Source of the DNA: an uncultured Pseudomonadales bacterium
GTDB taxonomy: Bacteria; Patescibacteriota; Microgenomatia; UBA1400; UBA12028
Direction: 5' to 3'
Length of the DNA stretch: 64,000 nt
Assembly (NCBI GenBank): GCA_964635905.1
Contig: CAZWPK010000001.1
Span: forward strand, 352,293 to 416,292
How positions within the stretch are numbered: position 1 is the stretch's first letter; each line of letters begins with the position of its first letter. Below the pieces are notes generated by a model. It did no database searches, was not told the DNA's origin, and worked only from the letters and a program-made list of their open reading frames with translations. The translations under genes were made by a program, and so were the position numbers. Positions 8,641 to 27,438 of the stretch are shown piece by piece.

Positions 8641-8660
8641 ATCTAGAGTTGTAGCATGAT

Positions 8661-9257
8661 TTACTCTTGCATCTCAAGTGTGGAAACAAGTTCAGTAAAG
8701 GATACTGCGTTGGGATTGGGAATTCCCGTTGCCGCAATCGAAACAGTCCATTCCTCTGATGCCAGAAATATTGTCGATGTATCAGATTCTATAAATTGTA
8801 GTGTTTCCGGCCAGCCAGTAGCCGGAGCTTGCGTTGGAACAAACTGTTCTGGGCGTTGTAATCGGGTCAGTACAGCGGTTTGTTCCAAAAGCGGACCTTG
8901 AGATGGTTTGGCTTGAATTGCAAGTCGTCCACTTGGGATCAATTTTGCCTTGAGTATACAATCATCTTGCACTGGCAAGTGCTCCAGCGTATGTGGCCAA
9001 GGGATCGAGATGGAAAAGCACGGTGTTCGATACTGTTGTGTCCCTAACACGGCCGTGGTTGGTGGAGGTGTGGCCATGGATACTTCATTCCACATGCTGG
9101 TGCCGGTTTCTCGTTGCTCTCGGATAAAATCCGTGGCTCGCTTAGACAACACACCAGTGGAACGTAAAGCTGCTACCTCGTCAAATGTCGCGACACTATG
9201 AAATAAAGGAGCACAGATCACTGCAAATGCTAGTAACTGTAGGAATCGTATGATCAT
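8661..9257 (-). CDS. Small secreted hypothetical protein within the surface cluster.
   Basis: 198-aa ORF with an N-terminal hydrophobic signal. No recognisable motif. Confidence 0.35.
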   Translation of the reverse strand: MIIRFLQLLAFAVICAPLFHSVATFDEVAALRSTGVLSKRATDFIREQRETGTSMWNEVSMATPPPTTAVLGTQQYRTPCFSISIPWPHTLEHLPVQDDCILKAKLIPSGRLAIQAKPSQGPLLEQTAVLTRLQRPEQFVPTQAPATGWPETLQFIESDTSTIFLASEEWTVSIAATGIPNPNAVSFTELVSTLEMQE

Positions 9258-10276
9258 GTCTTCCTTTTAGACTGTTTCCAACTAAGATATGCAACGACAG
9301 CTAACACGGGACACAAAAGTAGTAGCGCTGAGGGGGCATCAAGGATTACCACAACCCCTTCTTGCGTAAATTTCACATCTCCTGGTTCCGAGTGACCGGT
9401 GATGTTTACCGTGTAAGCTAAGGATGGAAGCAAGGGTCGAATGCTTCGAAGTGACACGCTGAGTTCGCGTTGCGCCCGTGGAAGTACGATAAACGATCCT
9501 TCGTTAATTGTTCCCTCTAGTACAGTTCTGCCCCAGAGATCTGTAATGGTGATTGTTCCTCTGGGAATGACATGAATATTTCCCTGATTTTCAAATAGTA
9601 ACGGGACGGTCGAGGGAAACTGGGGTTGGAAAAATGATTGCAACAACTCGACCTTACCCAACGATAAGTGGTACTGTTCCCCACCAATTTTTCGGATTAG
9701 TAAAAAAGATGATAGTGCGGGAACAACGGAGGGTGTGTCCTGAATCGACGATGAATTGGAACGTATGACCACAGCCGCATAGTGTCCACCGGGTGCTAAA
9801 TTTAATTGGTTTGCTACCCGCACTGTTAATGACTGGGTTTGTCCGGCTTTCAGCACAAATGTGGCAGGTGTCACCGTAATCGAGTCAGCTATAGAAACTG
9901 ACTCACTCGTGACGGGTTTATCCGTGAGAATTGTTGTTCCCTGACTATCAACTTGCGAAAACAAGAAGACAGAGGCGCTAAACTCTAAGTCTTTTTCAGT
10001 GGAATTATGCAATGTGAGCTCTTGAGTCGTTTCAAGACTGCCTTCCGATAATGAGAGCTGAGCAAATGGTGGACTAAGCGTGACTGTCGAATCCGTTGTC
10101 TGTGCTTGCACGGACAATGGAGAAATCACTACTCCTAGATAGACGGTGGCGGCGGCGAACGCTGCAATTTGGAGCGAATAAAGCGTACGAACGAACCGAT
10201 AGTGGTTCGTAAACCAATTCCAATAAATATGACAATGAGCAAAACTGCGAGACATATTCTCCATGGGATTACCCAA
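9254..10276 (-). CDS. CscA-like surface protein (DUF916/WxLIP_PGBD plus DUF3324/WxLIP_HBD-like architecture) with a C-terminal TM anchor. The start is uncertain.
   Basis: Signal peptide, two beta-sandwich-like halves, motif NQGNIHVIPRGTITI, and a C-terminal TM (ALLLLCPVLAVVAYLSW) followed by KQSKRKT. Paralog of the next two genes. The ORF-track start overlaps the upstream gene by ~140 nt, so the true start is probably internal (e.g. ~10255) or a frameshift is present. Confidence 0.45.
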   Translation of the reverse strand: MGNPMENMSRSFAHCHIYWNWFTNHYRFVRTLYSLQIAAFAAATVYLGVVISPLSVQAQTTDSTVTLSPPFAQLSLSEGSLETTQELTLHNSTEKDLEFSASVFLFSQVDSQGTTILTDKPVTSESVSIADSITVTPATFVLKAGQTQSLTVRVANQLNLAPGGHYAAVVIRSNSSSIQDTPSVVPALSSFLLIRKIGGEQYHLSLGKVELLQSFFQPQFPSTVPLLFENQGNIHVIPRGTITITDLWGRTVLEGTINEGSFIVLPRAQRELSVSLRSIRPLLPSLAYTVNITGHSEPGDVKFTQEGVVVILDAPSALLLLCPVLAVVAYLSWKQSKRKT

Positions 10277-11211
10277 AACGATACAAAGGATTCTACAGGA
10301 ACATCGCGTTCCCCATTATCGTACACTAGAAGGAGGTGGGCTGTGTAGCGCCCAATCCGAAAGGTATCCGTTGTAGAAAAATCGACATTCAATCGTTCCC
10401 CTGTTTCCTTTCCATTTTCTTGCTTTGTCACATAATTGGGAAATCCTTCATTCCATTTAATGGAATAGGTTCTCGTAGAGTCTGGCAAAATCGTCGCTTG
10501 GTTGGGGTTAAGTGCCATGACCGCAAGGTCTTTCTCTCCTCGGCCGTCAATGAAAACATTTCCAGTAGGAGTCACATGCACGTTTCCAGTGTTTTGAATC
10601 GTGACAATAAATTCTTGTGGCAAAAATTCTACGATCGGTCGGCGTACAGAAAACCCTTGTAACGCGAGCTCTCGTTTTGCAAAGGGTGAGTTCACATTGG
10701 CTAAAAGTAAGATAGCTGGTGCTCCCGCAATGCTTGTGTTTCCATCAGATTTTGCCGCAACCGATCGTTCAACAATGATCGTATAGTAATACGAGAGTGC
10801 AGCATCTTTTGGAGGGGAGAATGTAAGCGGTATAGTTTTCCATTCACCTCCCTGAATAAGAATTGAGTCTTTGGTAATTTGGAGCCAAGAGAGATAGACA
10901 TCTTCTGGTTTTCCATCGACAAAGATTGGCTTGTTTCCTGTCGCATCTGCGCGAAATGTTCCGATTCGTATTCGGACCGATTCTTCTTGCGTTCCATTAT
11001 TTCGGATTTTAACTTCAATATCTTTTGGCACACCAGGATCAGTTTGTACATTCAGTGTCACTGGTGAAACGGTCAGCGAGAGTGGTTGGGTAGGTGGAGC
11101 AATACTGGCACTCGGTGTGCCGATCGATTCGGTATCGACTGCTCGTACTAACGAGATTGGAAGTCGATTGACTCCAATGGTAAGTAGGATGAGGGTAACA
11201 ATTAATTTCAT
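10135..11211 (-). CDS. CscA-like surface protein paralog (DUF916/DUF3324-like, C-terminal TM anchor).
   Basis: 358 aa with signal peptide. Motifs NTGNVHVTPTGNVFIDGRGEKDL and YTAHLLLVYDNGERDVPVESFVSFWVIPWR, then a TM and a basic tail. Confidence 0.5.
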   Translation of the reverse strand: MKLIVTLILLTIGVNRLPISLVRAVDTESIGTPSASIAPPTQPLSLTVSPVTLNVQTDPGVPKDIEVKIRNNGTQEESVRIRIGTFRADATGNKPIFVDGKPEDVYLSWLQITKDSILIQGGEWKTIPLTFSPPKDAALSYYYTIIVERSVAAKSDGNTSIAGAPAILLLANVNSPFAKRELALQGFSVRRPIVEFLPQEFIVTIQNTGNVHVTPTGNVFIDGRGEKDLAVMALNPNQATILPDSTRTYSIKWNEGFPNYVTKQENGKETGERLNVDFSTTDTFRIGRYTAHLLLVYDNGERDVPVESFVSFWVIPWRICLAVLLIVIFIGIGLRTTIGSFVRFIRSKLQRSPPPPSI

Positions 11212-12302
11212 GGTAAGGGTTCCACAACTTGTTTTTTAAGCTGCCAACGCATGAGGACATAGACTAGAATGGCGGGGATCATCGGAATGGCAATAGCAAG
11301 AGCAATGAGCCGAAACGGTATCACCCAAAACGTTACATACGACTCAATGGGCACGTCGCGTTCCCCATTGTCAAACACAAGTAAAAGATGAGCAGTGTAG
11401 CGTCCAAAACGAAACAAGTTTGCTTTAGAAAAGTCCCACGAGAGTCCATTGGTCGTGTTCACTGGAAACCCATCGTTCCAGGGAATTTCTAGAATACGTT
11501 TAGAATTGGGAAGCACAACACTGCTATTTGGATTTAATGGTAACACCGACAAATCCTTTTTCCCTTGTCCATCGATAAAGATATTGCCGATAGGAGTGGT
11601 ATGGACATTTCCAATATTCTCAATTTCTACCTGAAACGTTTGGGGAAGAAACTCAAGAAGTCTATGCGAAACATTAAACGCATTTAAGGATAGTTCTCGT
11701 TTGGCATACGGTGAATCCACACTCGCAAGCAGCAAGATAGCAGGTGCCCCACTTATTTGAGTTGCATTTCCATCCGGGTTTGTAGGTGATAAGCGCTCAA
11801 TGGTTAAGGCATAATAATAAGCAAACGCCGTGTCTTTAGGAGGGTGAAAACTAACTTTAATGGTTTGCCATTCCTGCGGCTGTATGACAAATTCGTTCTG
11901 AGAAAAGCTAATCCATTCAAGGTACGTATCATCAGGCCGCTTCTCGCGAATTTTTGGTTTGCCTGTTGACTGCTCTGCTTCCAATGGGAGTGGATAAATA
12001 CGGACAGGTTCTGGTTTTTGACCATTGTTGCGAACCCGAATTTCCGTAAACACTTCTTCTCCCGGAGACGTCGAAAGCTGTGCAACAATTGGTGATAACG
12101 TCAAATTAAGCTGATCAGAGGGAACAATAGAGGGGGTTGGCGATGCAGAAGAGCTTGCTTGTTCCAAGAACTCGATACCAGGGCTAGACTGAGCCTGAAC
12201 AGATCTTGGAAATCCAATTGTTGCAAGAACCAACACTAAAAGAATGCAAAGGACACGCATATACCGATTATTACAGAAAAAAGGAAGTCCGCTAGAGTGC
12301 AA
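11208..12302 (-). CDS. CscA-like surface protein paralog (DUF916/DUF3324-like, C-terminal TM anchor).
   Basis: 364 aa, a close paralog of 10135..11211 (YTAHLLLVFDNGERDVPIESYVTFWVIPFR; NIGNVHTTPIGNIFIDGQGKKDL). It overlaps the previous gene by 4 nt, which looks like operon organisation. Confidence 0.5.
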   Translation of the reverse strand: MHSSGLPFFCNNRYMRVLCILLVLVLATIGFPRSVQAQSSPGIEFLEQASSSASPTPSIVPSDQLNLTLSPIVAQLSTSPGEEVFTEIRVRNNGQKPEPVRIYPLPLEAEQSTGKPKIREKRPDDTYLEWISFSQNEFVIQPQEWQTIKVSFHPPKDTAFAYYYALTIERLSPTNPDGNATQISGAPAILLLASVDSPYAKRELSLNAFNVSHRLLEFLPQTFQVEIENIGNVHTTPIGNIFIDGQGKKDLSVLPLNPNSSVVLPNSKRILEIPWNDGFPVNTTNGLSWDFSKANLFRFGRYTAHLLLVFDNGERDVPIESYVTFWVIPFRLIALAIAIPMIPAILVYVLMRWQLKKQVVEPLP

Positions 12303-12303
12303 T

Positions 12304-13362
12304 TTAGAAAATTCCAGATCCTACGACAGTGAGGGTGTCAGCGTAGTCACTTGCGGCTTCAGTCAAACCTGAGATTGCTGCTCTTGGAATTAGTGTCACA
12401 ATATCGCCGTTGCCTGCTCCATTGGAGGAAGCGATCGGTTGATACGACGTTGATAATGTTCCACCCGAAGAGGTATCAGAACCATCGTACTCTGCATCAA
12501 TCGTTACTGTTCCACCACTACCAGCATCAGTTGTTAAGTTCACATCTAAAACATATCCTTCTGTACCCGCAGAGAGCGAGGAAGGTGCCGCATTGATCGT
12601 TCCCGTTGTGGCAACCGTATATGTCGCATTTGTTGAAGTTAATCCAGCGTTTGCGCTTTTGACCCAAGCAGTCCAGCCACTTGCAGAGTTAGTGGTGATC
12701 GTGATTCCCGTTCCAGTTCCGGAAGAGACAGAACCTGTCGTTAAAGTTCCTAGAGCCTGTGAGTTATTTGCAAAAGAAAACGTAAAGGTTGGTGCAACGG
12801 TTGCCGTTACCGCAATTTGATCATCGGAAATTGTAGGAACTGCGACATCTTTGGTATCTGCAGTGCCAGCATCCGCACCCGTACGTGTAAAGATCGTGTG
12901 AAGAATAGTTGTTGAGGCAGAAGGATTGGAGATTAATCCTGTTCCACCATTCGTTATGAAAAACCCATACGTTGTACTATCTGTGAGGGCAGTAATCGGG
13001 AAACGGATTGTATTCGATGATACTGAATCCGCCGTAGAGACACCTGGCATCGCTGTAACTCCAGCTGGGAGGCCGGTTGTTGAAACCGTGTAATTTGATG
13101 CTGTGGTTGAGAAATTGGTGGTAGATACCCATTCTGAATCAAGTGTGATTTTGATCGAGGTTTCGGTGGCTGCGGTCGCTGAGGTGGTAAAGACTACTAA
13201 GCAGTTTCCTGGGTTTGTAGCGGCTTTCATTCTGTCACAGCGCATATAGGTGTTTCCTGCGGCTGCGGCTTGGACTTGCGCCACTCGAAGGTGAATTGCG
13301 ATCGAGAAGAACACGAACGGAACAACGACTGCAACGGTAATACTCTTTTTTACAAAACTCAT
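12304..13362 (-). CDS. Secreted beta-rich Thr/Ser/Gly-rich surface protein, paralog of the 7588..8640 gene. Candidate WxL-like cargo.
   Basis: The track ORF extends to 13476, but the plausible start is the ATG at 13362 (MSFVKKSITVAVVVPFVFFSIA signal). Shared C-terminal motif and shared internal GLTSTNATYT block with the paralog. Confidence 0.45.
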   Translation of the reverse strand: MSFVKKSITVAVVVPFVFFSIAIHLRVAQVQAAAAGNTYMRCDRMKAATNPGNCLVVFTTSATAATETSIKITLDSEWVSTTNFSTTASNYTVSTTGLPAGVTAMPGVSTADSVSSNTIRFPITALTDSTTYGFFITNGGTGLISNPSASTTILHTIFTRTGADAGTADTKDVAVPTISDDQIAVTATVAPTFTFSFANNSQALGTLTTGSVSSGTGTGITITTNSASGWTAWVKSANAGLTSTNATYTVATTGTINAAPSSLSAGTEGYVLDVNLTTDAGSGGTVTIDAEYDGSDTSSGGTLSTSYQPIASSNGAGNGDIVTLIPRAAISGLTEAASDYADTLTVVGSGIF

Positions 13363-13426
13363 ACACTCATCATACGCACAGCCAAAAATCAGTGTCAAGC
13401 TGGACTTCTTACAGAATCGGTACTCA

Positions 13427-14083
13427 ATGAGGCTTATATTGCTCAAAACTCTTGAGGAAGCGGTTCGCAATAGCATGATAAACTTATCTCACATGAAAAG
13501 CGCACAGCCTTCAACAGACTATGAAATTCGTTCGTTCGCAAGCCAAACGGATTGGGAGGCCTGGCTAGAGATGTATCATGACTCGGTTAACGGTGTTTGG
13601 TTACAGTTTTCCAAAAAAGGATCTGCGATTCCCTCTGTAACGTACTCACAGGCATTAGATGTTGCATTGTGTTATGGATGGATCGATGGTCAATCTAAAC
13701 GGTTGGATGAATTTAGTTATTTACAGAAATTCACGCCAAGACGAACAAATAGTCTGTGGTCCAAACTTAATATTGAACGTGTCACTCGCCTAATTGCAGA
13801 TCACAAGATGAAGCCAGCAGGGATAGCACAATTCGAGGCTGCAAAAGCGGATGGCAGATTACAACGTGCGTATGATTCTCCTTCTACGATGCACGTTCCA
13901 GACGATTTTTTATCCCTACTGGATCAGCATCCGAAAGCGAAGTCATTCTTTGCGACACTATCTAAAACAAACGTCTATGCCATTACCTGGAGATTGCAGA
14001 CAGCTAGAACGCCGGCTTTGCGACAGCAACGTCTGGAATCCATTGTGCGTAAACTCAACAACCACGAGGTTTTTCATCAATAA
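13427..14083 (+). CDS. YdeI/OmpD-associated family protein.
   Basis: Motifs WEAWLEMYHDSVNGVWLQFSKKGS, ALCYGWIDGQ, FTPRRTNSLWS and PAGIAQFEAAK are characteristic of the YdeI/OmdA family. The start may be an internal Met. Confidence 0.55.
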   Translation: MRLILLKTLEEAVRNSMINLSHMKSAQPSTDYEIRSFASQTDWEAWLEMYHDSVNGVWLQFSKKGSAIPSVTYSQALDVALCYGWIDGQSKRLDEFSYLQKFTPRRTNSLWSKLNIERVTRLIADHKMKPAGIAQFEAAKADGRLQRAYDSPSTMHVPDDFLSLLDQHPKAKSFFATLSKTNVYAITWRLQTARTPALRQQRLESIVRKLNNHEVFHQ

Positions 14084-14527: not shown

Positions 14528-16468
14528 TTATTCTTGGTACACCGCTTGCAGGAGCAGACTTTGTAATTTCAGCCCATTGGAAGATTGCACTTGCCCTAAT
14601 ACGGATTGAGCTTGATCTCGATTTATTTGCGCCAGTACTGCGGTATATAAATCCCCCCATTCGTGTGCTGCTGGGTTCGGCACCGTTCGCTGCACTTCTG
14701 TCAGGATTGCTGGAAGGGTTGTAATAGTGGTCAAATAGTCACTTGCTGGGGTAAAGGGAAGCCACTGAATTCCGTACACGTGCATCGGATCCGCAGAGAA
14801 CCACGTTGCAAATTCGCGCTTGCCTCCCCAAATCAAAGAGGCAGTTGGACGTGAGTATCCGGCTGGAAAGGGGTTGTCTTGCGCAAACCAATAGGACTGT
14901 ATTGCTGATAAATCCGTTGCGAACAGCCACTTGGCGCGATTGGTAAGTTCTGGCTGCTTAGTGTATTCTCCCCATAACGCAATGGCATACCAAGCGTTTA
15001 ACGATTCAGAACTGGATTCTTCATTGTTTCCATCTGCAAATTGCGCACGTCCATCCGCCCAAGCATGACCTTCAAAGACAGAAAACATCCGTAACCGAGG
15101 AAAGCGATTGCTAGGATCTTCCAATGTGGCGATATCTGCAATTAACTCTTCCATTCGTGGTTGAAAACGTTCCTGTAGTGCCGGTCGGTACTTGACCAGT
15201 ATCGCTGCAGCTCGGATGTAATAGGCGTAATGAAAATGATGATCATTTCCAAATTCGTTGCCAAATTCTGGGTTCGTTGCCACCATCATCGTAGTAGCTT
15301 CGTCATAGCGAAATTGCGAAAGGGATTCGGTGGTGACGCGTTCTAAAAGATCTAACAATTGGTCTCGTTCCGTTGTCAGGGAATACAGATCGGCAAGTTG
15401 TACCAAAGAAGTTAGTGACCCAATCCATGTTCCTTTAAAATACACACCCTGCGGCATGGCATTTTTGCCAGTCAGAAACCCTTCTGCATCGAGCCGAATT
15501 GCAGCTTGTAGTGCTTCGACTTGTGAAGGCGAGGTAACGGCAGAAAATTGTGTTGGTAGGGCTGGAAGCGGCTGACTCGTCGTAAACTGAGTACCCTCTC
15601 GAATCGTTTGAACTCCAAGGACTGTTTCATACACTCCCAGAGTTGCGGGTAATGGTGTTTCTAATCGGTGATGCGGCCATGTTGTAAAGAGTATTGGTTG
15701 GTTATCTTTTGTAACGAAATGGTAGGTGGTACGCACAGTATCCCCCTCCACAGCGTAGGATGCTTGCGTGTGGGTTGGAATTGTCCACGGTAACATTGTG
15801 ACGCGTTCCAACAATGGCTGTGATTCCATCGGCAGAATAATCACTCGAAATTGCGAATCAAGTGAGGATAGGGTTGCATCCCGTTCGCTGGTGCGAACAA
15901 CGGTTCCATTATTTGCTTGGAACAAAACAGCAAGACGTTCATTGCGTAAAATCACACCTTGCTCTGTTTGCTCAATCAATCCACCTGGACACTGTAGCGT
16001 AATCGTCGACACATCTGTGACATAGGAAACAGGGCTTCCTGAGAGTAGATGCAGTAGCATGGATGACTGATCATTCCCGGCTGCGATTGTGACGTTCCAG
16101 TCTCCATAGGAGACCACAGAGCTTGTAGTCAGGGAAAACTCCGGTTTGATCGTACACAGTGTTGCAAACGGTGCTGCAACTAAGGTTTCTGTCGCACGTA
16201 CACTAGGATACGAAACTTCAATTCCTGTTTGAGAAATTTTAAATGCTCCAGGGTAGGAAAAGAGCGGCTGTGACGGAAAGGTAAACGCACTACTAAACCA
16301 AGCATTAGTTTTTCGCGCTGTTGAGACAATGGGACGTGTCAGTTCCACGCCCTGAGACTTTTGGGTATCTGGACTAAGTATATTTTTAGGGACAAATTTC
16401 CAAGCGGAAACTCCTCCAATAATTAGGAGGATTCCCATGACTGCAACTTGGAATGATTTATCGATCAT
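14528..16468 (-). CDS. Glycoside hydrolase family 81 endo-beta-1,3-glucanase, membrane anchored.
   Basis: N-terminal TM. GH81 hallmark NDHHFHYAYYIRAAAIL. An ExxxE pair of catalytic-type glutamates lies in GNNEESSSESLNAWYAIALWGEY. Confidence 0.65.
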   Translation of the reverse strand: MIDKSFQVAVMGILLIIGGVSAWKFVPKNILSPDTQKSQGVELTRPIVSTARKTNAWFSSAFTFPSQPLFSYPGAFKISQTGIEVSYPSVRATETLVAAPFATLCTIKPEFSLTTSSVVSYGDWNVTIAAGNDQSSMLLHLLSGSPVSYVTDVSTITLQCPGGLIEQTEQGVILRNERLAVLFQANNGTVVRTSERDATLSSLDSQFRVIILPMESQPLLERVTMLPWTIPTHTQASYAVEGDTVRTTYHFVTKDNQPILFTTWPHHRLETPLPATLGVYETVLGVQTIREGTQFTTSQPLPALPTQFSAVTSPSQVEALQAAIRLDAEGFLTGKNAMPQGVYFKGTWIGSLTSLVQLADLYSLTTERDQLLDLLERVTTESLSQFRYDEATTMMVATNPEFGNEFGNDHHFHYAYYIRAAAILVKYRPALQERFQPRMEELIADIATLEDPSNRFPRLRMFSVFEGHAWADGRAQFADGNNEESSSESLNAWYAIALWGEYTKQPELTNRAKWLFATDLSAIQSYWFAQDNPFPAGYSRPTASLIWGGKREFATWFSADPMHVYGIQWLPFTPASDYLTTITTLPAILTEVQRTVPNPAAHEWGDLYTAVLAQINRDQAQSVLGQVQSSNGLKLQSLLLQAVYQE

Positions 16469-16470
16469 AG

Positions 16471-17256
16471 TTATTTCTTAATAATGAATCCGTTCCAGAA
16501 TTCCGCAATCCGTTCGGCTGGATTTTTTGCCATCTCGTTTCGTGTCTGTGAAATCACTTCTAATCCTTCTCCTTGAATGAAGGATGCCCCTTCATTTGGA
16601 TCAGAGAAACGAAATTGTAGTTCATACTTACTTTCAGAATATGTCGTTGCCGGGATGACTCGCCCTGCACCTTCCAATGTCACACTAAAGATCTGTCCAA
16701 ATCGAGGACTATAGAGATCCAAGGTTTTGTCTTTTTGAACCTGGGTATATTGTTCATTGTTGACTAGTCCCGTTAGCTTAATATCATCATCCGCAAATAA
16801 AATCATCATAGGTGTGGAGTGATTTAAGTAGGCGCCTTCGGCGATATTAACCTGATACACAATTCCATCTCGTGGCGCTTTAATCTCAAATTGTGGGATT
16901 TGGGCTTGGAGTACCTTTGCTTCGGTTTGTGCGGATAGATTCGAATTTCCCAGTTCTTCTAGCGTTTCCAGTTTTTGAGTGATCGCGTCATTACTTAATT
17001 TGACGAGCGTATCCCCTTTGCGAACATGCTGACCCGCATCAACTTGAAGCGATTCCACCTTTCCTTCTACGGAGTTTGAGATCACCACTTCTGGTTTTTT
17101 GACATTGAGAACCAAGGTCTGTTTTGTCATATGGTAGGAGTTGATCTTTCGCGTGAGCGACAAGGTTGCGATCGAAAATGCCACGATGAAAATGATGACA
17201 AAGTAGATAGTGTTTACGAGTGTTAAGCGTAGGTGAACCAGGTTAGTTGATTTCAT
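16471..17256 (-). CDS. HlyD-family membrane-fusion/periplasmic adaptor protein.
   Basis: N-terminal TM. Biotin-lipoyl-like hairpin VESLQVDAGQHVRKGDTLVKL...IKAPRDGIVYQVNIAEGAYL. Directly downstream of the GT2 gene. Confidence 0.6.
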   Translation of the reverse strand: MKSTNLVHLRLTLVNTIYFVIIFIVAFSIATLSLTRKINSYHMTKQTLVLNVKKPEVVISNSVEGKVESLQVDAGQHVRKGDTLVKLSNDAITQKLETLEELGNSNLSAQTEAKVLQAQIPQFEIKAPRDGIVYQVNIAEGAYLNHSTPMMILFADDDIKLTGLVNNEQYTQVQKDKTLDLYSPRFGQIFSVTLEGAGRVIPATTYSESKYELQFRFSDPNEGASFIQGEGLEVISQTRNEMAKNPAERIAEFWNGFIIKK

Positions 17257-18794
17257 ACGGTTTTTAGGGAGTGATGAACTTTTCGATTTTCTCCCGTGAT
17301 AAAGATAATAAGTAAATACATGTTAAACAGAGCCCAGATGCTGTTATAAAACGTGGACCAAAAGTTGACAGGGTCATACCAGCCGATGATCAAGGCAAAT
17401 ACCGTGAGGATAATTAAAAAGACGTGTGGCCAGATCCATTGTAAGTCAAAGACACCTTTTGTGTTCGTGGTGGTGGCAATCCATCGCAGTTTCGTTCCAA
17501 AAATCACCGTAATCGAGGCAAGGATGTAGGGGTAGAAACTTGCCATAGCAGTCGCAATCGTGGAAATATGCAGTCGGCCCACCAATAGCCAGGTCAAACC
17601 ATAGTACAAACCAAAGAATGGGAGGTAGTGAATAAGCCACATCAATCCATTTTCTGTCTCTAACGACTTAATTCCAAACAATAAATAGATTAACGGAAAC
17701 AAGATATACATGAGGATGGTAAAGCCACACAAGTAAAAGAAGTTGGCAGAAAAGTAGTGAAGCTTTTGATCAATCGTTAAATGCTTGGACAACAACGGAT
17801 TGTGCAAAAACATCATCGATAGTCCCCCTTTGGACCAGCGCAACTGTTGTTTGAAAAAGGAGGCAATTGTAGAAGGAGCCATGCCGACCGCTAAGATTTC
17901 GTTGACAAAGAGTGTCTTCCATCCGTGTTCATGCAATAAATAGGAGGTCCAAATATCTTCGGAGTGTCCCACCTGTGCAATGCCATTAATTTCATCGATT
18001 GCTTTTCGTCGAAAGATAACGTTTGTTCCCACACAAAAGGCACTGTTCGTAACATTCTTGGCGGGACAGACGTGACGGTAAAAGATTTCTTGGGCTTGGG
18101 CGGTTCCATGGGCGATAAACTCATGTGTGTTTTTGTAATGCTGTGGAGACTGTACCATCGCAATTTCTGGATTGGCTAAGAATGGGAGAAGTTGCACTAA
18201 GAAGTTACGTTTGGGAACTTGGTCAGCATCAAAGATTGCAAAGAATTCTGCACTACTATAGCGTAGTCCATGATTCATGTTTCCAGATTTTGCGAACTCT
18301 CGATTCGTTCGGGTGATGTAGTGTGCTCCGAACTGCTTAGCGAGCGCTTCCACCTCTTTGGACTGTCCATCATCAAGTAGAAACGTTTGGTGAGGATAAT
18401 CCATGGCGACAGCTGCTTTGATCGTCTCTGCAATAATCTCCACAGGTTCTCCTGCGACAGGAATAAAGACGTCGACGGTGCGGATATCTTCAAACAAGGA
18501 GTGATTCTCTTTAGAAGATAAGTGTCGATGATGAATGGCAACTAACACATCCATCAGAATGGTTAACCAAAGGGAGAGCAAAATAACAATTGAGATCAAG
18601 TCTACCGAAGCATGAAGCAGATACATAATAGGATGGTCTGCATTTGCAGGATTAAAAACGAACGAACCATACAAGAGCACCACGATCGGAGCTGCCAGTA
18701 AAAATAGGATGGTTGTTCCCTGTAGTTGATCGGCGGTGAGTTTGTTAAAACTACGATTAAAAGCCATATTAGTTTTCCCTCGCTGTAACAACAC
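17253..18794 (-). CDS. Processive family-2 glycosyltransferase of the cellulose/curdlan/chitin-synthase type, i.e. a beta-glycan synthase.
   Basis: Multi-TM. GT2 motifs DDG, FDAD (DxD), SED and QQLRWSKGG (QxxRW). Overlaps the HlyD gene by 4 nt. Confidence 0.7.
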   Translation of the reverse strand: MLLQRGKTNMAFNRSFNKLTADQLQGTTILFLLAAPIVVLLYGSFVFNPANADHPIMYLLHASVDLISIVILLSLWLTILMDVLVAIHHRHLSSKENHSLFEDIRTVDVFIPVAGEPVEIIAETIKAAVAMDYPHQTFLLDDGQSKEVEALAKQFGAHYITRTNREFAKSGNMNHGLRYSSAEFFAIFDADQVPKRNFLVQLLPFLANPEIAMVQSPQHYKNTHEFIAHGTAQAQEIFYRHVCPAKNVTNSAFCVGTNVIFRRKAIDEINGIAQVGHSEDIWTSYLLHEHGWKTLFVNEILAVGMAPSTIASFFKQQLRWSKGGLSMMFLHNPLLSKHLTIDQKLHYFSANFFYLCGFTILMYILFPLIYLLFGIKSLETENGLMWLIHYLPFFGLYYGLTWLLVGRLHISTIATAMASFYPYILASITVIFGTKLRWIATTTNTKGVFDLQWIWPHVFLIILTVFALIIGWYDPVNFWSTFYNSIWALFNMYLLIIFITGENRKVHHSLKTV

Positions 18795-20862
18795 TTGGCA
18801 TAGGACTTGTTGGGGCCAGAGACCCGATGACGGGATCGGATGCTAATGGTGTAACCTTCTTTTTCTTACTTGCATGGGATGTTCCAATTGCTCTGGAAAT
18901 TAGATCCAGGATTACCACCAGAATTGTCAAACCAATCATGTTTAGTTGTAATGGCCAATGCCATGCTGGCCAATGATTTTCTAAGTGGACGACAGACGGA
19001 CGATTGGAGCTAGGAAGTCGAAGCACCATCAGTCGTTCGGAGGTTGGTGACAGAGTGAATCCACTCTCTTGAATTTTCCAGTTAGAATCGTAACTTTGCA
19101 TCAGCAATACATTATTAATTGATGATGGTACATTCGATAAATCGATCTCCAATTTGTTTGTATCGGAAGTTCTCAACTCAATGGGAAGCAACTTCTTTTC
19201 TCGGATTGCATAATCAAGTGCGACAAATCGTTCATCCCACGGTTTCCAACTCGTTGCGTGCATCGTTGGTTTTTTAAGTGGAGCATACGAAATCACGGAA
19301 TCATCCAAGACTGCATACGCACTCGAGATGGGAAATGTAGATTCCAACACAACCAAACCAGAATTTGTTTCAAATGGAATCTGTTTGAAACCAGAGCCAT
19401 TGAGCGATTCTCTAGTCAACATGGGTATACTCGGTGATAACTTTGGCAAAAAGAGATACTGCAAACCTAAGACATGCGAGTAGGAAATCAAATAATCAAC
19501 CTGTTGCTGTGAGATTCCTGTATAGGCAATATCGTTTCGAAGTAGACCTGCAAACCGCATTGCTGTGGGGCTTGGTAGCATTTGTTCGAAGTATGAGTTC
19601 ACAAACTGGGTTCCACTTGGAGATAAAAACGACGCATTCGCAATATCTGTCGTGAAAATTCTTCCCTTTGGTGTTCCTTGCTTGTTTACAAATTCCGCTA
19701 CAGGACTGTCAACAGAATTAGTAGCAGATGGAGCATATCGCGATGCATTACCAATTGCGGAACTACAGAAGAAGGCTAAAAGTAAGACTCCAACTGTCTT
19801 TAAAAAACGTGAGTGCTTTGGCCAAACCTGATTGGCAATAGATGCGATAACAAAGCTTAAAAGTACTCCGAGTAATGGCACTGATCGAGCAAATTGCAAT
19901 TGAAGAATGAAGCTTGGGAGAGCCCCTGATTGACCAAGTCGAATCATGATAAAAAAGATTGTTACAAAGACTAATAAAACTTTTGTCCATTTCGGTACTT
20001 GCCGAGGCATTGCTAAGATCGATAACCAAGAAACACTTAGAAGTGAGAACATGAGAAGCCCAAAGCCAAAACTTTCCCCAGGCAAATTTTCCCGATAGAA
20101 CTGAGCTGAAGCAAATGACGGATTTCCAAAATAGTAACCTTTAGTGATGTAAGGAAGCCAAAATACACTTGAGATGATCAAATATAGGATGGCTCTACTT
20201 AAGATCTGTCGTATACTATGCCAATTCAGTTGAAGATTAAACGTAAAGAGCCAAAGTCCACCGGTCACATACGCTAATGTGGGATGAAATACCCAAGCAA
20301 TTCCTGCTAATGCAGGGAGGATAAATGAGTGTCGTTTGTGGATCATGTCTTGAATCCACAAATAAGTGAACAAAGATATTAACGTTAGAGGGAACAAAAT
20401 ACTAAACTCCTTGACTGGTGCCCATAACTGCGGCATCGTCAAAAATGCGATGATAGCCAACAAAGTAGGTAGCGCTTTAATCCTTAGTTTTCGTAATAGT
20501 ACATACGTGACGGATAGGTGAAGCAGTAGAATCCCTACAGTTTCGATGATCATCGCTTTTGTCAAAGACACGGATAGAAACTTCGAGATTCCAACGGCAA
20601 CAGCGTGTGGTAAATACTGGTATAACCGCCAGTGATTCATCCCATTTGCCCAGATATGATCCCAAGATGCAAATCCATGTTCTGCAACAGATTTAACTTG
20701 GAATGCCTGATACATCCAATCTGCATAACTAACCCACAAATATTCATAGAATAGATATGAACCAAAGAGGAAGAGTCCAAAACCGATCAGCAAAGACAGG
20801 AAAAGCACGTCAAGACCCACGGAAAGAATGGAAAATTTATGCTCAGTATGATTGGCAGACAT
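18769..20862 (-). CDS. Large polytopic membrane protein with a C-terminal extracytoplasmic domain, possibly a GT-C-type glycosyltransferase or polysaccharide-associated protein.
   Basis: Track ORF 18769..21003. The likely ATG is at 20862 (MSANHTEHKF...). There are at least 10 predicted TM helices followed by a ~300-aa hydrophilic C-terminal region. No diagnostic motif. Confidence 0.35.
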   Translation of the reverse strand: MSANHTEHKFSILSVGLDVLFLSLLIGFGLFLFGSYLFYEYLWVSYADWMYQAFQVKSVAEHGFASWDHIWANGMNHWRLYQYLPHAVAVGISKFLSVSLTKAMIIETVGILLLHLSVTYVLLRKLRIKALPTLLAIIAFLTMPQLWAPVKEFSILFPLTLISLFTYLWIQDMIHKRHSFILPALAGIAWVFHPTLAYVTGGLWLFTFNLQLNWHSIRQILSRAILYLIISSVFWLPYITKGYYFGNPSFASAQFYRENLPGESFGFGLLMFSLLSVSWLSILAMPRQVPKWTKVLLVFVTIFFIMIRLGQSGALPSFILQLQFARSVPLLGVLLSFVIASIANQVWPKHSRFLKTVGVLLLAFFCSSAIGNASRYAPSATNSVDSPVAEFVNKQGTPKGRIFTTDIANASFLSPSGTQFVNSYFEQMLPSPTAMRFAGLLRNDIAYTGISQQQVDYLISYSHVLGLQYLFLPKLSPSIPMLTRESLNGSGFKQIPFETNSGLVVLESTFPISSAYAVLDDSVISYAPLKKPTMHATSWKPWDERFVALDYAIREKKLLPIELRTSDTNKLEIDLSNVPSSINNVLLMQSYDSNWKIQESGFTLSPTSERLMVLRLPSSNRPSVVHLENHWPAWHWPLQLNMIGLTILVVILDLISRAIGTSHASKKKKVTPLASDPVIGSLAPTSPMPSVVTAREN

Positions 20863-21106
20863 AGTACGTAAGAAAGAATAACAAACACTAAACTTACCGG
20901 TGTATGAGTTGTGTGAAAGAATGGTAAGTATGACAGTCTGGCTGTGATCCAGATTACAAACGAAAAGAGTGTCTATTATAGGGGGATGCAATCGTCGTTG
21001 CAAGCTCAGGTTCTTACGATAGTAAATCTATAGTCTGCTGGAAGTCTGTACTACTAGATTCTTTCTTCTCAAACTTTCTGGTAAAATAGCAAAGTCCCGT
21101 TGCGTT

Positions 21107-21177
21107 TGCCCGGTCGTCTAAAGGTAGGACTGCAGATTTTGGATCTGCGTATTGGGGTTCGAATCCCTGCCGGGCAG
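21107..21177 (+). tRNA. tRNA-Gln (anticodon UUG).
   Basis: Perfect 7-bp acceptor stem TGCCCGG/CCGGGCA. Canonical GGTTCGAATCC T-arm. Anticodon loop TTTTGGA with UUG at positions 34-36. No encoded CCA. Confidence 0.8.
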
Positions 21178-21258
21178 CACATCAGCGCATCTGATTACAA
21201 TTTTTAAAAACCTCAATGTTTTTAGTTTTTTATTTGAGATAGCGACTGATCTATTTTT

Positions 21259-22331: not shown

Positions 22332-22934
22332 TTAATACAGTAGTGCTTCGCCAGAGCTGACCTTGGATTGTAGTGCATCTATATTCAGTAATCGAATTCG
22401 GTGTTGAGAAATTTCAATCAGCTTTTCCTGACGAAGATGGCTGAGTTCTCGGGTGACCGTTTCTCGGCTTAGCCCGGTAAGCTCTGCAAGTTGTTGGTGC
22501 GTCAACGCGATATGGATCGTTCTTTCATTGGAACTGTCTGGAAATCGCTCACTTAATATTAATAGCGTTTGTATTAACAACGATGCGGCATCTCCCTGCA
22601 TCAGTTTTTCGGTTTTTTGAAGCATTCCATGCAGACCGCTTAACAAGCGCAGCATCACAGAATACGCAACCGTTGGATCCGACTGTAAGTATTCCTTGAC
22701 CTTAGAAAGTGGAGCCTTAAATCCTTGACACTCCGTGACACAGACAAAGGCATAGGTGTTGGGAAGATCCAGGAGCCCATTCATCAAGGGAAAGAAGCTA
22801 CCCGGTTTAAAGAGATTGAGTGTCAACTCCTGACCTTTGGGGGTCGTAGCGATTTGCTTTACAATCCCATTCGTTAAGTAAAAGACTTGGGGTGTCGTCG
22901 TATGTGAGGTGATTAAGAGTTCAGTGGGTTGCAT
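22332..22934 (-). CDS. Crp/Fnr-family transcriptional regulator.
   Basis: cNMP-binding-like N-terminal domain. C-terminal HTH LTHQQLAELTGLSRETVTRELSHLRQEKLI. Confidence 0.7.
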   Translation of the reverse strand: MQPTELLITSHTTTPQVFYLTNGIVKQIATTPKGQELTLNLFKPGSFFPLMNGLLDLPNTYAFVCVTECQGFKAPLSKVKEYLQSDPTVAYSVMLRLLSGLHGMLQKTEKLMQGDAASLLIQTLLILSERFPDSSNERTIHIALTHQQLAELTGLSRETVTRELSHLRQEKLIEISQHRIRLLNIDALQSKVSSGEALLY

Positions 22935-25581: not shown

Positions 25582-27438
25582 TTAGCGTTTCAGCACGTCT
25601 TGCAGTGCCCGAACCGCAGAGAGTGGTTCATAGTTTTCTCCAAAGGGTAAACCATCACCGATTTCTAAGGTTTGATTGCGTCCGAGTCCGGACGTGGAAC
25701 TGTATTTCTCTGTGATTCCCCACATGCTAAACGCGATACAATTTGGTACCTGGATACAGGCTGACAGTGTGTTTGAAAACTGGCTTGCTTGCTGTGAACT
25801 ATCATGGCCATATGCATCCAATTCGGAAACCCGCACGTAGAGTTTTTTGTTGTATTTATTGCCAAGTGTTACCACCTGCTCCATATGAGACTGTAAGGTT
25901 TTGGTCGAAATTTCATCACCACGTTCATAGACATGCGCCTGGAATCCGAGTCCATCGATCGGGACATCTTTTTTCAGAAGTTCCTCGATCAGTGTGAGCA
26001 TCCCAGTGAAGCGGTCACTCTCTTCTTCCAGTCCCCATTCGTTGATAAAGAGTAAAGCTTGGGGATCACTGGCTTTAGCTGCGCGCAGTGCTTTTTCGAT
26101 ATAGGAGGGACCCATCGCCTGATGCCAAAGATGATTGCGATAGGTTACCTCTCCATCCCAGTAGTCTTCATCGAGGGGCTCATTAATCACATCCCAGGTT
26201 TTAATCGTTCCCTTATAGTGGGAGACCACGGTTTTAATATGGGAGAGCATCATTTCTTCACGTTTTTCTTTGGGAGTTTGCTGCATCCAGGCTGGGTTGG
26301 CTTCCCCAAACACGAGCGTGTGTCCATGCACGGCAATTCCGGCTCGTTTTGCGACGGTGACGATAGCATCGGCTTCGCCAAATGCATATTGATCTGGGGC
26401 CGGATGTACAAATTGGGCTTTGAGTGCATTTTCCGTGGTAAAGACCCCATACCATCCCTGAGTAGCCAACTCAAAATACCACGGATCCGAGACTAATGGG
26501 CCCAATGCGACTGCCGCTCCGATCTTTAAACTGGATGACTTCTTTTTGGCAAGTTCTTGCCAGGATTCAGCAATTTTTGCCGGCAGTTGTAGGGTGTCTG
26601 GGGTGTTGACGATCGTTGTAGTGGAGCCCTGTAGTGGGGTCAAGGAAAATTGGGTCAAGCGAAGTTCGCCACCTGGTGTGGGAGTATCTAGACCGAACCA
26701 TAGTTTCCCATTGGAGAGTAACGACTTTGTGGGTACGGAGCCGACGGTGTTGCCATTGAGTGTAATCGCGATGGTTTGTGCATTCGTCTCCACCGAGAGT
26801 TCTGCGGTGCTAGTGGGTGGTACCGAAAAGGTCGTTTGGGTGGGTCGATTCCTTGCGCCATCGTACTGAGCTAGGCGAAGTGAGCCAGCATTCAATTCTA
26901 CGACCAGTGCTGGTTCCCAAAACAAAAACTCGTCATAGATTCGAGGAGGTCTTCCGTACAACGATAATCGCCAGGCGTTGGTGGTGGTGATTTTTGCGGT
27001 GATTTTGAAATCACCGGCTAGTTTTAATTGCGGTCCAAATAAAGCGATGGCCGGATTTTGGACACCCGGTGTTCCATCTTGTTCTACGATGGAGCGACCC
27101 GTGTGTTTGACGATGAGTGTTGCTCCCTCTCTGGAAGAGCCAGGCAGTGAGGTCCAATCGCGACCGGATAGGAGGTCGGTTGGGGATTGTTGAACCACTA
27201 CTGTTTTGGGTTGTTGCGTTGCTGCTGGTGACGCCGTGATCGTGGGTGTGGGGCTAGGAGTGATCGCGGTGGCACTACTGCTCGCACTTGCGCTCGCGTC
27301 ATCTGCCAACGGGGTTGTGGGTGGGAGTCGTTTCACTCCAATCAACGAGAGACAGATCATCGACAACGAGACGATCTGGTGCCGGAGAGCATCGAGGGCG
27401 GGAACAACGGTCTGACTAAATGATGTATCCATAGGCAT
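25582..27438 (-). CDS. Secreted GH10 endo-beta-1,4-xylanase with an N-terminal Thr/Pro linker and a putative binding module.
   Basis: GH10 blocks WDVINEP (acid/base Glu), FINEWGLEE and VSELD (nucleophile Glu). TM/signal plus PT-linker. Confidence 0.7.
   Translation of the reverse strand: MPMDTSFSQTVVPALDALRHQIVSLSMICLSLIGVKRLPPTTPLADDASASASSSATAITPSPTPTITASPAATQQPKTVVVQQSPTDLLSGRDWTSLPGSSREGATLIVKHTGRSIVEQDGTPGVQNPAIALFGPQLKLAGDFKITAKITTTNAWRLSLYGRPPRIYDEFLFWEPALVVELNAGSLRLAQYDGARNRPTQTTFSVPPTSTAELSVETNAQTIAITLNGNTVGSVPTKSLLSNGKLWFGLDTPTPGGELRLTQFSLTPLQGSTTTIVNTPDTLQLPAKIAESWQELAKKKSSSLKIGAAVALGPLVSDPWYFELATQGWYGVFTTENALKAQFVHPAPDQYAFGEADAIVTVAKRAGIAVHGHTLVFGEANPAWMQQTPKEKREEMMLSHIKTVVSHYKGTIKTWDVINEPLDEDYWDGEVTYRNHLWHQAMGPSYIEKALRAAKASDPQALLFINEWGLEEESDRFTGMLTLIEELLKKDVPIDGLGFQAHVYERGDEISTKTLQSHMEQVVTLGNKYNKKLYVRVSELDAYGHDSSQQASQFSNTLSACIQVPNCIAFSMWGITEKYSSTSGLGRNQTLEIGDGLPFGENYEPLSAVRALQDVLKR

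What the first reader, a model, noticed from the sequence alone, without database searches (positions are those of the whole stretch)
14528..21003. Putative beta-1,3-glucan (curdlan-like) exopolysaccharide synthesis/export locus with a cognate GH81 glucanase
Four consecutive minus-strand genes: a large polytopic membrane protein, a processive GT2 synthase with D, DxD, (S/T)ED and QxxRW motifs, an HlyD-type periplasmic adaptor (translationally coupled by a 4-nt overlap), and a membrane-anchored GH81 endo-beta-1,3-glucanase (NDHHFHYAYY, ExxxE). The pairing of a synthase and a glycanase parallels bcsA/bcsZ in cellulose operons. An HlyD partner for a GT2 synthase is known from cyanobacterial cellulose export. 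The GH81 specificity argues that the polymer is a beta-1,3-glucan.
Basis: partly seen in the sequence, partly recalled or inferred. Interest (0 to 1): 0.6.

Follow-up and report, generated by a model that had tools for sequence, protein, structure and literature searches.

The report
Beta-glucan synthesis operon in a CPR bacterium
A four-gene operon in an ultra-small, uncultured (CPR/Woesebacteria-like) bacterium encodes a cellulose-synthase-like enzyme, a stripped-down HlyD adaptor, a beta-1,3-glucanase and a lipid-sugar-dependent (GT-C) glycosyltransferase; the first three recur together in many wall-only (monoderm) bacteria and probably make and trim a curdlan-like surface sugar polymer that nobody has yet described in these organisms.

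Summary
Four tightly packed minus-strand genes (14528-20862) encode a 697-aa membrane protein, a processive GT2 synthase, a 261-aa HlyD-type adaptor and a GH81 glucanase. The first gene really starts at ATG 20862, not 21003, and the GT2 gene at ATG 18767.

The GT2 groups with BcsA/BgsA-type beta-glucan synthases, not with NodC or PgaC. The GH81 call passes Pfam and aligns over its full length to solved GH81 structures, with the catalytic motifs intact.

New points:
- The organism is a CPR/Patescibacteria (Woesebacteria-like) bacterium, which has no outer membrane.
- GT2, short HlyD and GH81 occur together in 70 of 80 related loci, from CPR phyla to cultivable Actinoplanes.
- The "polytopic membrane protein" is a GT-C-fold glycosyltransferase (AlphaFold pLDDT 91.6; the top PDB matches are AftD, AftA, PglB and ArnT). 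It is found only in the CPR loci.
- The HlyD lacks the long hairpin that docks TolC.
- The synthase has no PilZ or c-di-GMP domain.

A beta-1,3-glucan product is the best inference, but it rests on GH81 family specificity alone. I found no published description of this cassette. I rate it a new variant of synthase-dependent exopolysaccharide systems, of moderate to good interest.

The parts
20975..21003 (-). Promoter-like site (TTGCAA, 17 nt, TATAAT) about 110 nt upstream of the first gene of the operon
   Evidence: 10 of 12 consensus matches. This is a consensus match only, and promoter-like sites were fewer in the region than in shuffles (5 against a mean of 13.5). The ORF finder's TTG 'start' at 21003 is its -35 hexamer.
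18769..20862 (-). GT-C-fold membrane glycosyltransferase (697 aa). It has about 11 N-terminal TM helices, an invariant Asp48 in the first outside loop, an extracytoplasmic alpha/beta + beta-sandwich domain (about residues 380-630) and a C-terminal TM helix. It belongs to no Pfam family.
   Evidence: No Pfam or NCBIfam hit. The exact 697-aa product is on record. AlphaFold model: pLDDT 91.6, pTM 0.90. The top 16 Foldseek PDB matches are all GT-C enzymes: AftD (3e-7), ALG12, AftA, STT3, PglB, AglB and ArnT. D48 is invariant in 52 relatives. Weak YfhO, PTPS_related and DUF6541 hits occur in distant members, and one relative is fused to a GT2 (PF00535) domain that looks DPM1/GtrB-like.
17253..18767 (-). 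Processive family-2 beta-glucan synthase (504 aa). It has 2 N-terminal TM helices, a GT-A domain with DDG, DAD, SED and QQLRW motifs, and C-terminal channel helices. It has no PilZ or c-di-GMP domain.
   Evidence: BcsA structures match at 5e-50 over query residues 106-508. The BgsA-type protein matches at 31% identity, 7e-69. The protein ends about where the last ~140 residues of the BgsA-type protein begin; the papers place its c-di-GMP-binding domain at the C-terminus.
16471..17256 (-). Short membrane-anchored HlyD-type adaptor (261 aa): TM helix 16-34, lipoyl and beta-barrel domains, and an alpha-helical hairpin reduced to about 20-30 residues. Its start codon overlaps the GT2 stop codon (ATGA).
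   Evidence: In the alignment to the 410-aa S. meliloti HlyD partner, about 175 residues between the two lipoyl halves of that protein have no counterpart here.
14528..16468 (-). GH81 endo-beta-1,3-glucanase homologue (646 aa) with an N-terminal hydrophobic anchor or signal peptide (residues 8-26), all GH81 domains and intact catalytic motifs. It carries no CBM.
   Evidence: It aligns to 6fop over residues 48-580 and to BH0236 over 243-620. NDHHFHY and DGNN(Q/E)ESSSE are conserved in the cluster-linked orthologues.

Best explanation
This is a four-gene operon of a Woesebacteria-like CPR bacterium, an organism without an outer membrane. It encodes a synthase-dependent system for making a surface or extracellular beta-glucan, most probably one with consecutive beta-1,3 links (curdlan-like), and it has no c-di-GMP-binding domain.

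Proposed mechanism:
1. The BcsA/BgsA-like GT2 polymerises UDP-glucose at the cytoplasmic face and threads the chain through its own transmembrane channel.
2. The short, membrane-anchored HlyD-type protein sits on the outer face. It acts as a co-polymerase or guide collar, taking the place of BcsB, Alg44, BgsB or XcsB. Having lost the hairpin, it does not reach for an outer-membrane channel.
3. The membrane-tethered or secreted GH81 cuts beta-1,3-glucan outside the cell. It may trim, release or relieve jams of the nascent polymer, as BcsZ does for cellulose.
4. The GT-C enzyme, present only in the CPR versions, uses a polyprenyl-phosphate sugar on the outer face to decorate or branch the glucan, or to attach it to an envelope acceptor.

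What is shown: the protein families, motifs, fold, operon structure and conserved linkage.
What is inferred: the substrate (UDP-Glc), the linkage, the role of each accessory protein and the physical complex.
For: Families and motifs. Tight operon with overlapping or abutting genes and one promoter-like site upstream.

Conserved linkage among 80 loci that carry a GT2 relative:
- A HlyD gene is present in 76.
- GH81 is present in 70; 5 of the 10 without it are truncated contigs.
- The GT-C gene is present in 42, all of them CPR.
- Gene order is permuted in some Moranbacteria-type loci (GH81 upstream of the GT-C gene), yet the cluster is kept.

The triad GT2 + 259-274-aa HlyD + GH81 also occurs in Peribacteria and in Actinoplanes and other Micromonosporaceae. 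The GH81 catalytic motifs are kept across these orthologues.

Endo-beta-1,3-glucanase is the only activity reported for GH81, with laminaritriose as the minimal substrate (PMC9609564).

Precedents for a GT2 synthase with an HlyD-type partner:
- BgsBA (PMC13438883).
- The cyanobacterial XcsA/XcsB/XcsC operons, which add an endoglucanase (PMC12430437).
- Alg8/Alg44, from my own knowledge; the paper PMC4436075 appeared in the search but I did not read its text.

The best plasmid-borne relative of the GT2 is the BgsA-type protein (221 bits), against 184-189 bits for BcsA.

GT-C assignment. Evidence that it uses a lipid-linked sugar donor: one relative is fused to a GT2 (PF00535) domain of DPM1/GtrB-like appearance, and a GtrA-family gene lies nearby in 11 loci.

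Monoderm context: the closest relatives are named Woesebacteria, Moraniibacteriota and Levyibacteriota, and the window carries an LCP ligase.
Against: - No experiment bears on the product. Linkage cannot be read from a GT2 sequence.
- I could not compare the GT2 with curdlan synthase CrdS, because no CrdS sequence was available in the tools.
- The GT2 scores far below the NCBIfam CelA cut-off (250 against 699 bits), so it is not an orthologue of any characterised synthase.
- Its nearest comparator available to me makes a mixed-linkage glucan, not curdlan.
- The cluster-linked GH81 proteins are only about 30% identical to characterised enzymes, so a shifted specificity is possible.
- No gene for a polyprenyl-P-sugar synthase or a GtrA flippase lies in the 64-kb window.
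- The role of a hairpin-less HlyD in a monoderm is untested.
Confidence: 0.6

Rival explanations
1. The same machinery makes cellulose or a mixed-linkage beta-1,3/1,4-glucan like that of BgsA or RiGT2. In that case the GH81 has a diverged specificity, or cuts only occasional beta-1,3 stretches.
For: The nearest characterised relatives available to me are BcsA (cellulose) and the BgsA-type synthase (mixed-linkage glucan). RiGT2 shows that BcsA-like GT2 enzymes of Gram-positive bacteria can make mixed-linkage glucan (PMC10374906). Sequence cannot separate the linkages.
Against: Only endo-beta-1,3-glucanase activity is known in GH81, with laminaritriose as the minimal substrate. A strictly alternating 1,3/1,4 glucan would not offer that substrate. 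The catalytic motifs are strictly conserved in the linked GH81 proteins. Where synthase operons carry a glycanase, it normally matches the product (BcsZ, XcsC).
Confidence: 0.2
2. The GH81 is not a partner of the synthase. It is a feeding or attack enzyme against foreign beta-1,3-glucans (fungal, algal or host), and its position next to the GT2 is only a matter of co-regulation.
For: The characterised bacterial GH81 enzymes are secreted degradative glucanases. The window also carries a GH10 xylanase-like gene. CPR bacteria depend on external carbon.
Against: GH81 is linked to GT2 and HlyD in 70 of 80 loci, across CPR phyla and Actinomycetota, even where gene order is shuffled. Unlike the degradative enzymes, it has no CBM and has an N-terminal membrane anchor or signal. 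The gene abuts the HlyD gene with a 2-nt gap.
Confidence: 0.08
3. The GT2 makes a GlcNAc-containing polymer (chitin-, PNAG- or hyaluronan-like), or is a non-processive transferase.
For: The GT2 gives weak hits to the PgaC/IcaA and NodC models. A CE4 deacetylase gene lies next to the cluster in one Peribacteria locus.
Against: The CelA model scores 250 bits, against 71 for PgaC and 37 for NodC. The alignment to BcsA runs through the channel helices, and QxxRW is present. The CE4 neighbour is not conserved; it lies beside the cluster in only 1 locus.
Confidence: 0.05

Closest known systems
BgsBA mixed-linkage beta-glucan system of Sinorhizobium meliloti (with TolC)
   Same: A BcsA-like GT2 synthase without a PilZ domain is encoded next to an HlyD-type protein. 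The BgsA-type protein is the best plasmid-borne relative of the window GT2 (31% identity, 7e-69).
   Different: BgsA has a C-terminal c-di-GMP-binding domain that is absent here. BgsB is 410 aa with a long hairpin, and the system needs TolC. The window HlyD is 261 aa and hairpin-less, in an organism without an outer membrane. bgsBA has no glycanase and no GT-C gene. The product there is an alternating beta-1,3/1,4 glucan.
Cyanobacterial XcsA/XcsB/XcsC cellulose system (Thermosynechococcus; operons in Synechococcus PCC 7942 and Nostoc punctiforme)
   Same: The three-part logic is the same, and in some species the genes form one operon: synthase + HlyD-like protein + endoglucanase (PMC12430437).
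   Different: XcsA has a PilZ domain and makes cellulose. XcsB is proposed to dock a TolC-like channel in a diderm envelope. The glycanase is a beta-1,4-endoglucanase, not GH81. There is no GT-C partner.
Curdlan synthase locus crdASC of Agrobacterium
   Same: It is the known bacterial system for a linear beta-1,3-glucan, and it too uses a BcsA-like GT2 without PilZ (my own knowledge; PMC10374906 reports that BgsA was suggested to derive from CrdS).
   Different: crdA and crdC are not HlyD or GH81 genes, the locus has no glycanase and the organism is diderm (my own knowledge). Orthology to CrdS was not tested here, because no CrdS sequence was available.
BcsA-BcsB-BcsZ cellulose synthase
   Same: The GT-A domain and channel architecture and the motifs are shared. 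BcsA structures are the best solved relatives. The synthase is paired with a cognate endoglucanase.
   Different: The window operon has no PilZ, no BcsB and no BcsC. It has 2 rather than 4 N-terminal TM helices. The hydrolase is GH81 instead of GH8. The GT2 scores below the CelA cut-off.
GtrA/GtrB/GT-C and CsbB/YfhO three-component glycosylation systems
   Same: The 697-aa protein has a GT-C fold with a conserved Asp in the first outer loop. Some relatives give weak YfhO/PTPS_related hits, one is fused to a GT2 (PF00535) domain of DPM1/GtrB-like appearance, and others have a GtrA-family gene nearby.
   Different: The protein belongs to no Pfam GT-C family. Its acceptor is unknown. No GtrA or GtrB homologue lies in this window. 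Here the GT-C gene is coupled to a processive synthase operon rather than to O-antigen or teichoic-acid genes.

Membership tests
Processive GT2 beta-glucan synthases (BcsA/CesA/CrdS/BgsA type) | GT-A domain with D, DxD, (T/S)ED and QxxRW motifs | tested here: met
   DDG132, DAD180, SED269 and QQLRW307. These are invariant in 30 relatives.
Processive GT2 beta-glucan synthases (BcsA/CesA/CrdS/BgsA type) | Transmembrane channel helices following the GT domain, homologous to those of BcsA | tested here: met
   Query residues 106-508 align to E. coli BcsA residues 274-697. Hydrophobic segments were found at 348-373, 413-431 and 448-471.
Processive GT2 beta-glucan synthases (BcsA/CesA/CrdS/BgsA type) | Gating-loop motif FxVTxK | tested here: inconclusive
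   The window has WIATTTNTK at the aligned position. W429 and T432 are invariant in the family. This is a variant, not the canonical motif.
BcsA cellulose synthase proper (NCBIfam TIGR03030/PRK11498) | Score above the curated cut-off; C-terminal PilZ domain; BcsB partner | tested here: not met
   The scores are 250 against a cut-off of 699, and 195 against 992. No PilZ hit was found. No BcsB-like gene is in the operon.
Curdlan synthase CrdS / crdASC | Orthology to CrdS, crdA and crdC neighbours, and a linear beta-1,3-glucan product | not tested
   No CrdS, CrdA or CrdC sequence or model was available in the tools. The product cannot be determined in silico.
BgsBA mixed-linkage glucan system | GT2 with a C-terminal c-di-GMP-binding domain, plus a full-length HlyD protein that works with TolC | tested here: not met
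   The GT2 alignment ends at about residue 525 of the 664-aa BgsA-type protein. The HlyD lacks about 175 residues present in the BgsB-type partner. The host is a CPR bacterium.
Glycoside hydrolase family 81 | GH81 domains above the Pfam cut-off and alignment to solved GH81 structures | tested here: met
   PF17652 scores 164 bits against a cut-off of 25.6. 6fop aligns over residues 48-580 (4e-47) and BH0236 at 5e-41.
Glycoside hydrolase family 81 | Catalytic Asp and two Glu (NDHHFHY and ExxxE motifs) | tested here: met
   NDHHFHY408 and EESSSE483-488, conserved in the cluster-linked orthologues. That these are the catalytic residues rests on my own knowledge of the RmLam81A and BhGH81 structures.
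Glycoside hydrolase family 81 | Endo-beta-1,3-glucanase activity | not testable with these tools
   This needs an enzyme assay on curdlan, laminarin and pachyman, with lichenan, CMC and chitin as comparisons.
HlyD / membrane fusion protein family | Lipoyl and beta-barrel domains behind an N-terminal TM anchor | tested here: met
   HlyD_3 scores 43.5 (cut-off 22.2), HlyD_D23 41.1 (cut-off 30) and Biotin_lipoyl_2 32.3 (cut-off 29.8). The TM segment is at 16-34.
HlyD / membrane fusion protein family | Long alpha-helical hairpin that docks an outer-membrane factor | tested here: not met
   Only about 20-30 residues separate the two lipoyl halves, against about 175 in the BgsB-type protein. All NCBIfam adaptor models score far below their cut-offs.
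GT-C glycosyltransferases | GT-C fold: a multi-helix membrane module plus an extracytoplasmic domain | tested here: met
   The model has pLDDT 91.6. The top 16 Foldseek matches are all GT-C enzymes, with probability 1.00 and the best E-value 3e-7.
GT-C glycosyltransferases | Conserved acidic residue in the first extracytoplasmic loop | tested here: met
   D48 (in Y46-x-D48-W49) is invariant in 52 relatives.
GT-C glycosyltransferases | Use of a polyprenyl-phosphate-linked sugar donor | not testable with these tools
   The support is indirect: the P0145 fusion to a GT2 (PF00535) domain, and a GtrA-family neighbour in 11 loci.
YfhO / PTPS_related Pfam families | Pfam score above the gathering cut-off | tested here: not met
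   The window protein has no hit. Only 2 of 52 relatives reach YfhO, at 2.4e-7.

The most novel reading that the evidence does not exclude
The GT2 + hairpin-less HlyD + GH81 cassette, with a GT-C enzyme added in CPR lineages, is a previously unrecognised beta-1,3-glucan (curdlan-type) synthesis and secretion system specific to monoderm bacteria. It is shared by many CPR phyla and by Micromonosporaceae.

If so, many ultra-small episymbiotic CPR bacteria would coat themselves with a fungal-like beta-1,3-glucan, decorated or anchored through a lipid-linked sugar pathway. The cassette would also supply the missing genetic basis for the curdlan-type matrices reported in Gram-positive bacteria such as Cellulomonas.
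Probability: 0.4. Interest if true: 0.75.

Novelty: new variant of a known kind. Interest (0 to 1): 0.6.

Why it matters
The cell surface of CPR/Patescibacteria is almost unknown, although it mediates their attachment to hosts.
- A conserved operon for a beta-glucan coat gives a concrete target that can be stained (aniline blue, Dectin-1, anti-beta-1,3-glucan antibodies).
- The same core triad occurs in cultivable Actinoplanes, so the prediction can be tested genetically now.
- The cassette would extend synthase-dependent polysaccharide secretion to a minimal, outer-membrane-free form in which an HlyD-type protein works without a TolC partner.
- It would show a processive synthase coupled to a GT-C enzyme.
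- It may explain how Gram-positive bacteria make curdlan-type polymers, which are of industrial interest.

Tried and rejected
- Pfam and NCBIfam gave nothing for the 697-aa protein, scanned alone or as 29 and 52 relatives, beyond two weak YfhO hits.
- Word-indexed homologue searches for that protein returned only 7 close relatives, even with a profile.
- A first AlphaFold model from 7 sequences was poor (pLDDT 57.6) and its fold search was meaningless. A 52-sequence alignment of library representatives then worked.
- A profile search of PDB sequences found nothing significant.
- The Actinoplanes sporangium-matrix paper (PMC12691653) proved to concern an unrelated GH5/imp cluster.
- A CE4 deacetylase next to the cluster in one Peribacteria locus raised the idea of a GlcNAc polymer, but it is not conserved.
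- A search for GtrA or GtrB-like genes in the window found none.
- The contig look-up for the 697-aa protein did not name the organism. Taxonomy rests on named relatives.
- A direct comparison with CrdS was not possible, because no sequence was available.
- Literature searches pairing GH81 with CPR terms, curdlan synthase with CPR, GH81 with membrane fusion proteins, and cellulose synthase with Patescibacteria found no description of this cassette.

Full report
**Observation.** The region holds four consecutive minus-strand ORFs.
- They are packed as an operon. The stop of the first gene and the GT2 ATG are 1 nt apart, with a GAGGG ribosome-binding-like site upstream. The GT2 stop and the HlyD start overlap as ATGA. 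The HlyD stop and the GH81 start are 2 nt apart.
- Downstream genes converge on the operon. Upstream lies a divergent tRNA-Gln.
- The ORF finder's TTG start at 21003 is the -35 hexamer of a promoter-like site, TTGCAA-17-TATAAT.
- The products on public record are 697, 504, 261 and 646 aa, each on a 504,786-bp contig. The first gene therefore starts at ATG 20862 and the GT2 gene at ATG 18767.

**Component identities.**
- *GH81.* It matches Pfam Glyco_hydro81C at 7e-48. It aligns to C. thermocellum Lam81A (6fop) over residues 48-580 and to B. halodurans BH0236. It keeps NDHHFHY and DGNNEESSSE. An N-terminal hydrophobic segment (residues 8-26) serves as a signal anchor or a cleavable signal peptide. 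No CBM was found.
- *HlyD.* The 261-aa protein has a TM anchor and passes the HlyD_3, HlyD_D23 and lipoyl-like cut-offs. Aligned to the 410-aa HlyD partner of the S. meliloti GT2, its two lipoyl halves are separated by about 20-30 residues instead of about 175. The hairpin that contacts TolC-type channels is therefore essentially missing.
- *GT2.* It carries DDG, DAD, SED and QQLRW. It scores 250 bits on the CelA model, against 71 for PgaC and 37 for NodC. It aligns to BcsA structures through the channel helices. It has no PilZ domain and ends about 140 residues before the C-terminus of the BgsA-type protein, whose c-di-GMP-binding domain the papers place at the C-terminus.

**The fourth protein.**
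- It has no Pfam or NCBIfam hit.
- Its family is small: 141 representatives among 1.84 billion proteins.
- With a 52-sequence alignment, AlphaFold gave a confident model (pLDDT 91.6, pTM 0.90).
- The top 16 Foldseek matches in the PDB are all GT-C glycosyltransferases: AftD, ALG12, AftA, STT3, PglB, AglB and ArnT.
- Asp48, in the first outer loop, is invariant.
- Distant members give weak YfhO, PTPS_related and DUF6541 hits. One relative is fused to a GT2 (PF00535) domain that looks DPM1/GtrB-like. In 11 Moranbacteria-type loci a GtrA-family gene lies about 2 kb away.
- Together these point to a GT-C enzyme that uses a polyprenyl-phosphate sugar on the outer face. Its acceptor is unknown.

**Organism and distribution.**
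- The GT2's relatives are named Woesebacteria (96% identity, same gene order in L001), Moraniibacteriota, Levyibacteriota, Gottesmanbacteria, Berkelbacteria, Paceibacterota and Peribacteria. The window is therefore from a CPR/Patescibacteria genome.
- That CPR bacteria lack an outer membrane rests on my own knowledge. It is consistent with the LCP ligase gene in the window.
- Of 80 genome loci carrying a GT2 relative, 76 have the HlyD gene and 70 have GH81. Five of the ten without GH81 are truncated contigs. The GT-C gene is present in 42 loci, all CPR.
- No other gene family recurs around the cluster.
- In some Moranbacteria-type loci GH81 lies upstream of the GT-C gene, so the order is shuffled but the linkage is kept.
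- Peribacteria and cultivable Actinomycetota (Actinoplanes, Krasilnikovia, Klenkia and others; 37% GT2 identity) carry GT2 + a 259-274-aa HlyD + GH81.
- The GH81 catalytic motifs are conserved across these orthologues.

**Mechanism.**
- The best-supported reading is a synthase-dependent beta-glucan system for an envelope without an outer membrane.
- The GT2 polymerises and translocates the chain. The hairpin-less HlyD acts as an outer-face collar or co-polymerase. The GH81 trims or releases the chain. In CPR, the GT-C enzyme decorates or anchors it.
- A GT2 synthase paired with an HlyD-type protein has precedents. These are BgsBA, which needs TolC (PMC13438883), and the cyanobacterial XcsA/XcsB/XcsC operons, which also include an endoglucanase (PMC12430437). 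Alg8/Alg44 is a further case, from my own knowledge.
- The beta-1,3 linkage is inferred from two points. Endo-beta-1,3-glucanase is the only activity reported for GH81, with laminaritriose as the minimal substrate (PMC9609564). Glycanases encoded in synthase operons usually match the product.
- The linkage is not shown here. The GT2's nearest comparator available to me is the BgsA-type protein (221 bits, against 184-189 for BcsA), and BgsA makes a mixed-linkage glucan. I could not compare the GT2 with CrdS.

**Rivals.**
- Cellulose or a mixed-linkage glucan as the product cannot be excluded from sequence (confidence about 0.2).
- A purely degradative GH81, unrelated to the synthase, fits poorly with the conserved linkage, the membrane anchor and the lack of a CBM.
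- A GlcNAc polymer fits poorly with the model scores. The CE4 deacetylase neighbour lies beside the cluster in only one locus.

**Novelty.**
- Relatives are annotated only as "glycosyltransferase", "HlyD family efflux transporter periplasmic adaptor subunit" and "hypothetical protein".
- Full-text searches found no description of a GH81-linked synthase cassette in CPR or in Actinomycetes.
- Curdlan-type matrices are reported for Cellulomonas; the one paper I read on this names no dedicated synthase genes, and I did not establish whether such genes are known.
- I rate the locus a new variant of a known kind. It follows the logic of synthase-dependent exopolysaccharide systems, but with a distinctive, conserved part list: GH81, a minimal HlyD, no c-di-GMP module and an added GT-C enzyme, in monoderm bacteria.

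**Verdict.** Interest is 0.6.

Noticed in passing
window 21107-21178 (+): A tRNA-Gln (anticodon TTG) lies immediately upstream of the operon and is divergent from it. It is the only RNA gene found in the 64-kb window.
   Followed up: partly
window 7588-13476 (-): A run of consecutive minus-strand ORFs (198-390 aa) has no significant Pfam match; one gives a weak Fn3-like hit. They are flanked by a LytR_C-domain protein (6877-7572). This may be a CPR-specific surface or pilus-like gene block.
   Followed up: no
window 32945-36985 (-): A 1346-aa ORF has no Pfam hit at all.
   Followed up: no
window 25582-27438 (-): A 618-aa protein has a C-terminal GH10 (xylanase) domain and about 296 unassigned N-terminal residues. 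It is a second glycan-active enzyme close to the operon.
   Followed up: no
window 41511-43672 (-): A LytR-CpsA-Psr (LCP) ligase gene lies next to a PAP2 phosphatase gene. This is typical of wall-glycopolymer attachment in monoderm bacteria, and the ligase could in principle anchor a polymer to peptidoglycan.
   Followed up: no
window 22332-22934 (-): A Crp/FNR-type regulator (cNMP-binding domain + HTH) lies 1.3 kb from the operon's promoter region. No link to the operon was tested.
   Followed up: no
L008:2262-2774 (+), and 10 other Moranbacteria-type loci: A GtrA-family gene (PF04138), of the kind linked to flipping polyprenyl-P-sugars, lies about 2 kb upstream of the GT-C gene. An amine-oxidase-like flavoprotein gene lies between them.
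   Followed up: partly
proteins P0145, P0208, P0209, P0250 (relatives of the GT-C protein): Some relatives are fusion proteins. P0145 has a GT2 (PF00535) domain of DPM1/GtrB-like appearance fused to the GT-C module. P0208 has TPR repeats. P0209 and P0250 have response-regulator receiver domains.
   Followed up: partly
loci L002, L005, L008, L009, L011, L013 and others (record titles): Many 'TPA_asm' metagenome bins that carry this CPR-type cluster are titled Gammaproteobacteria, Bdellovibrionales or Pseudomonadales. The taxonomic labels of what look like CPR genomes are probably wrong.
   Followed up: no
L045:5518-6411 (+): In one Peribacteria locus, a CE4 polysaccharide deacetylase gene and an ABC-2 transporter gene sit directly upstream of the GT2 gene. 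This is not conserved elsewhere.
   Followed up: yes
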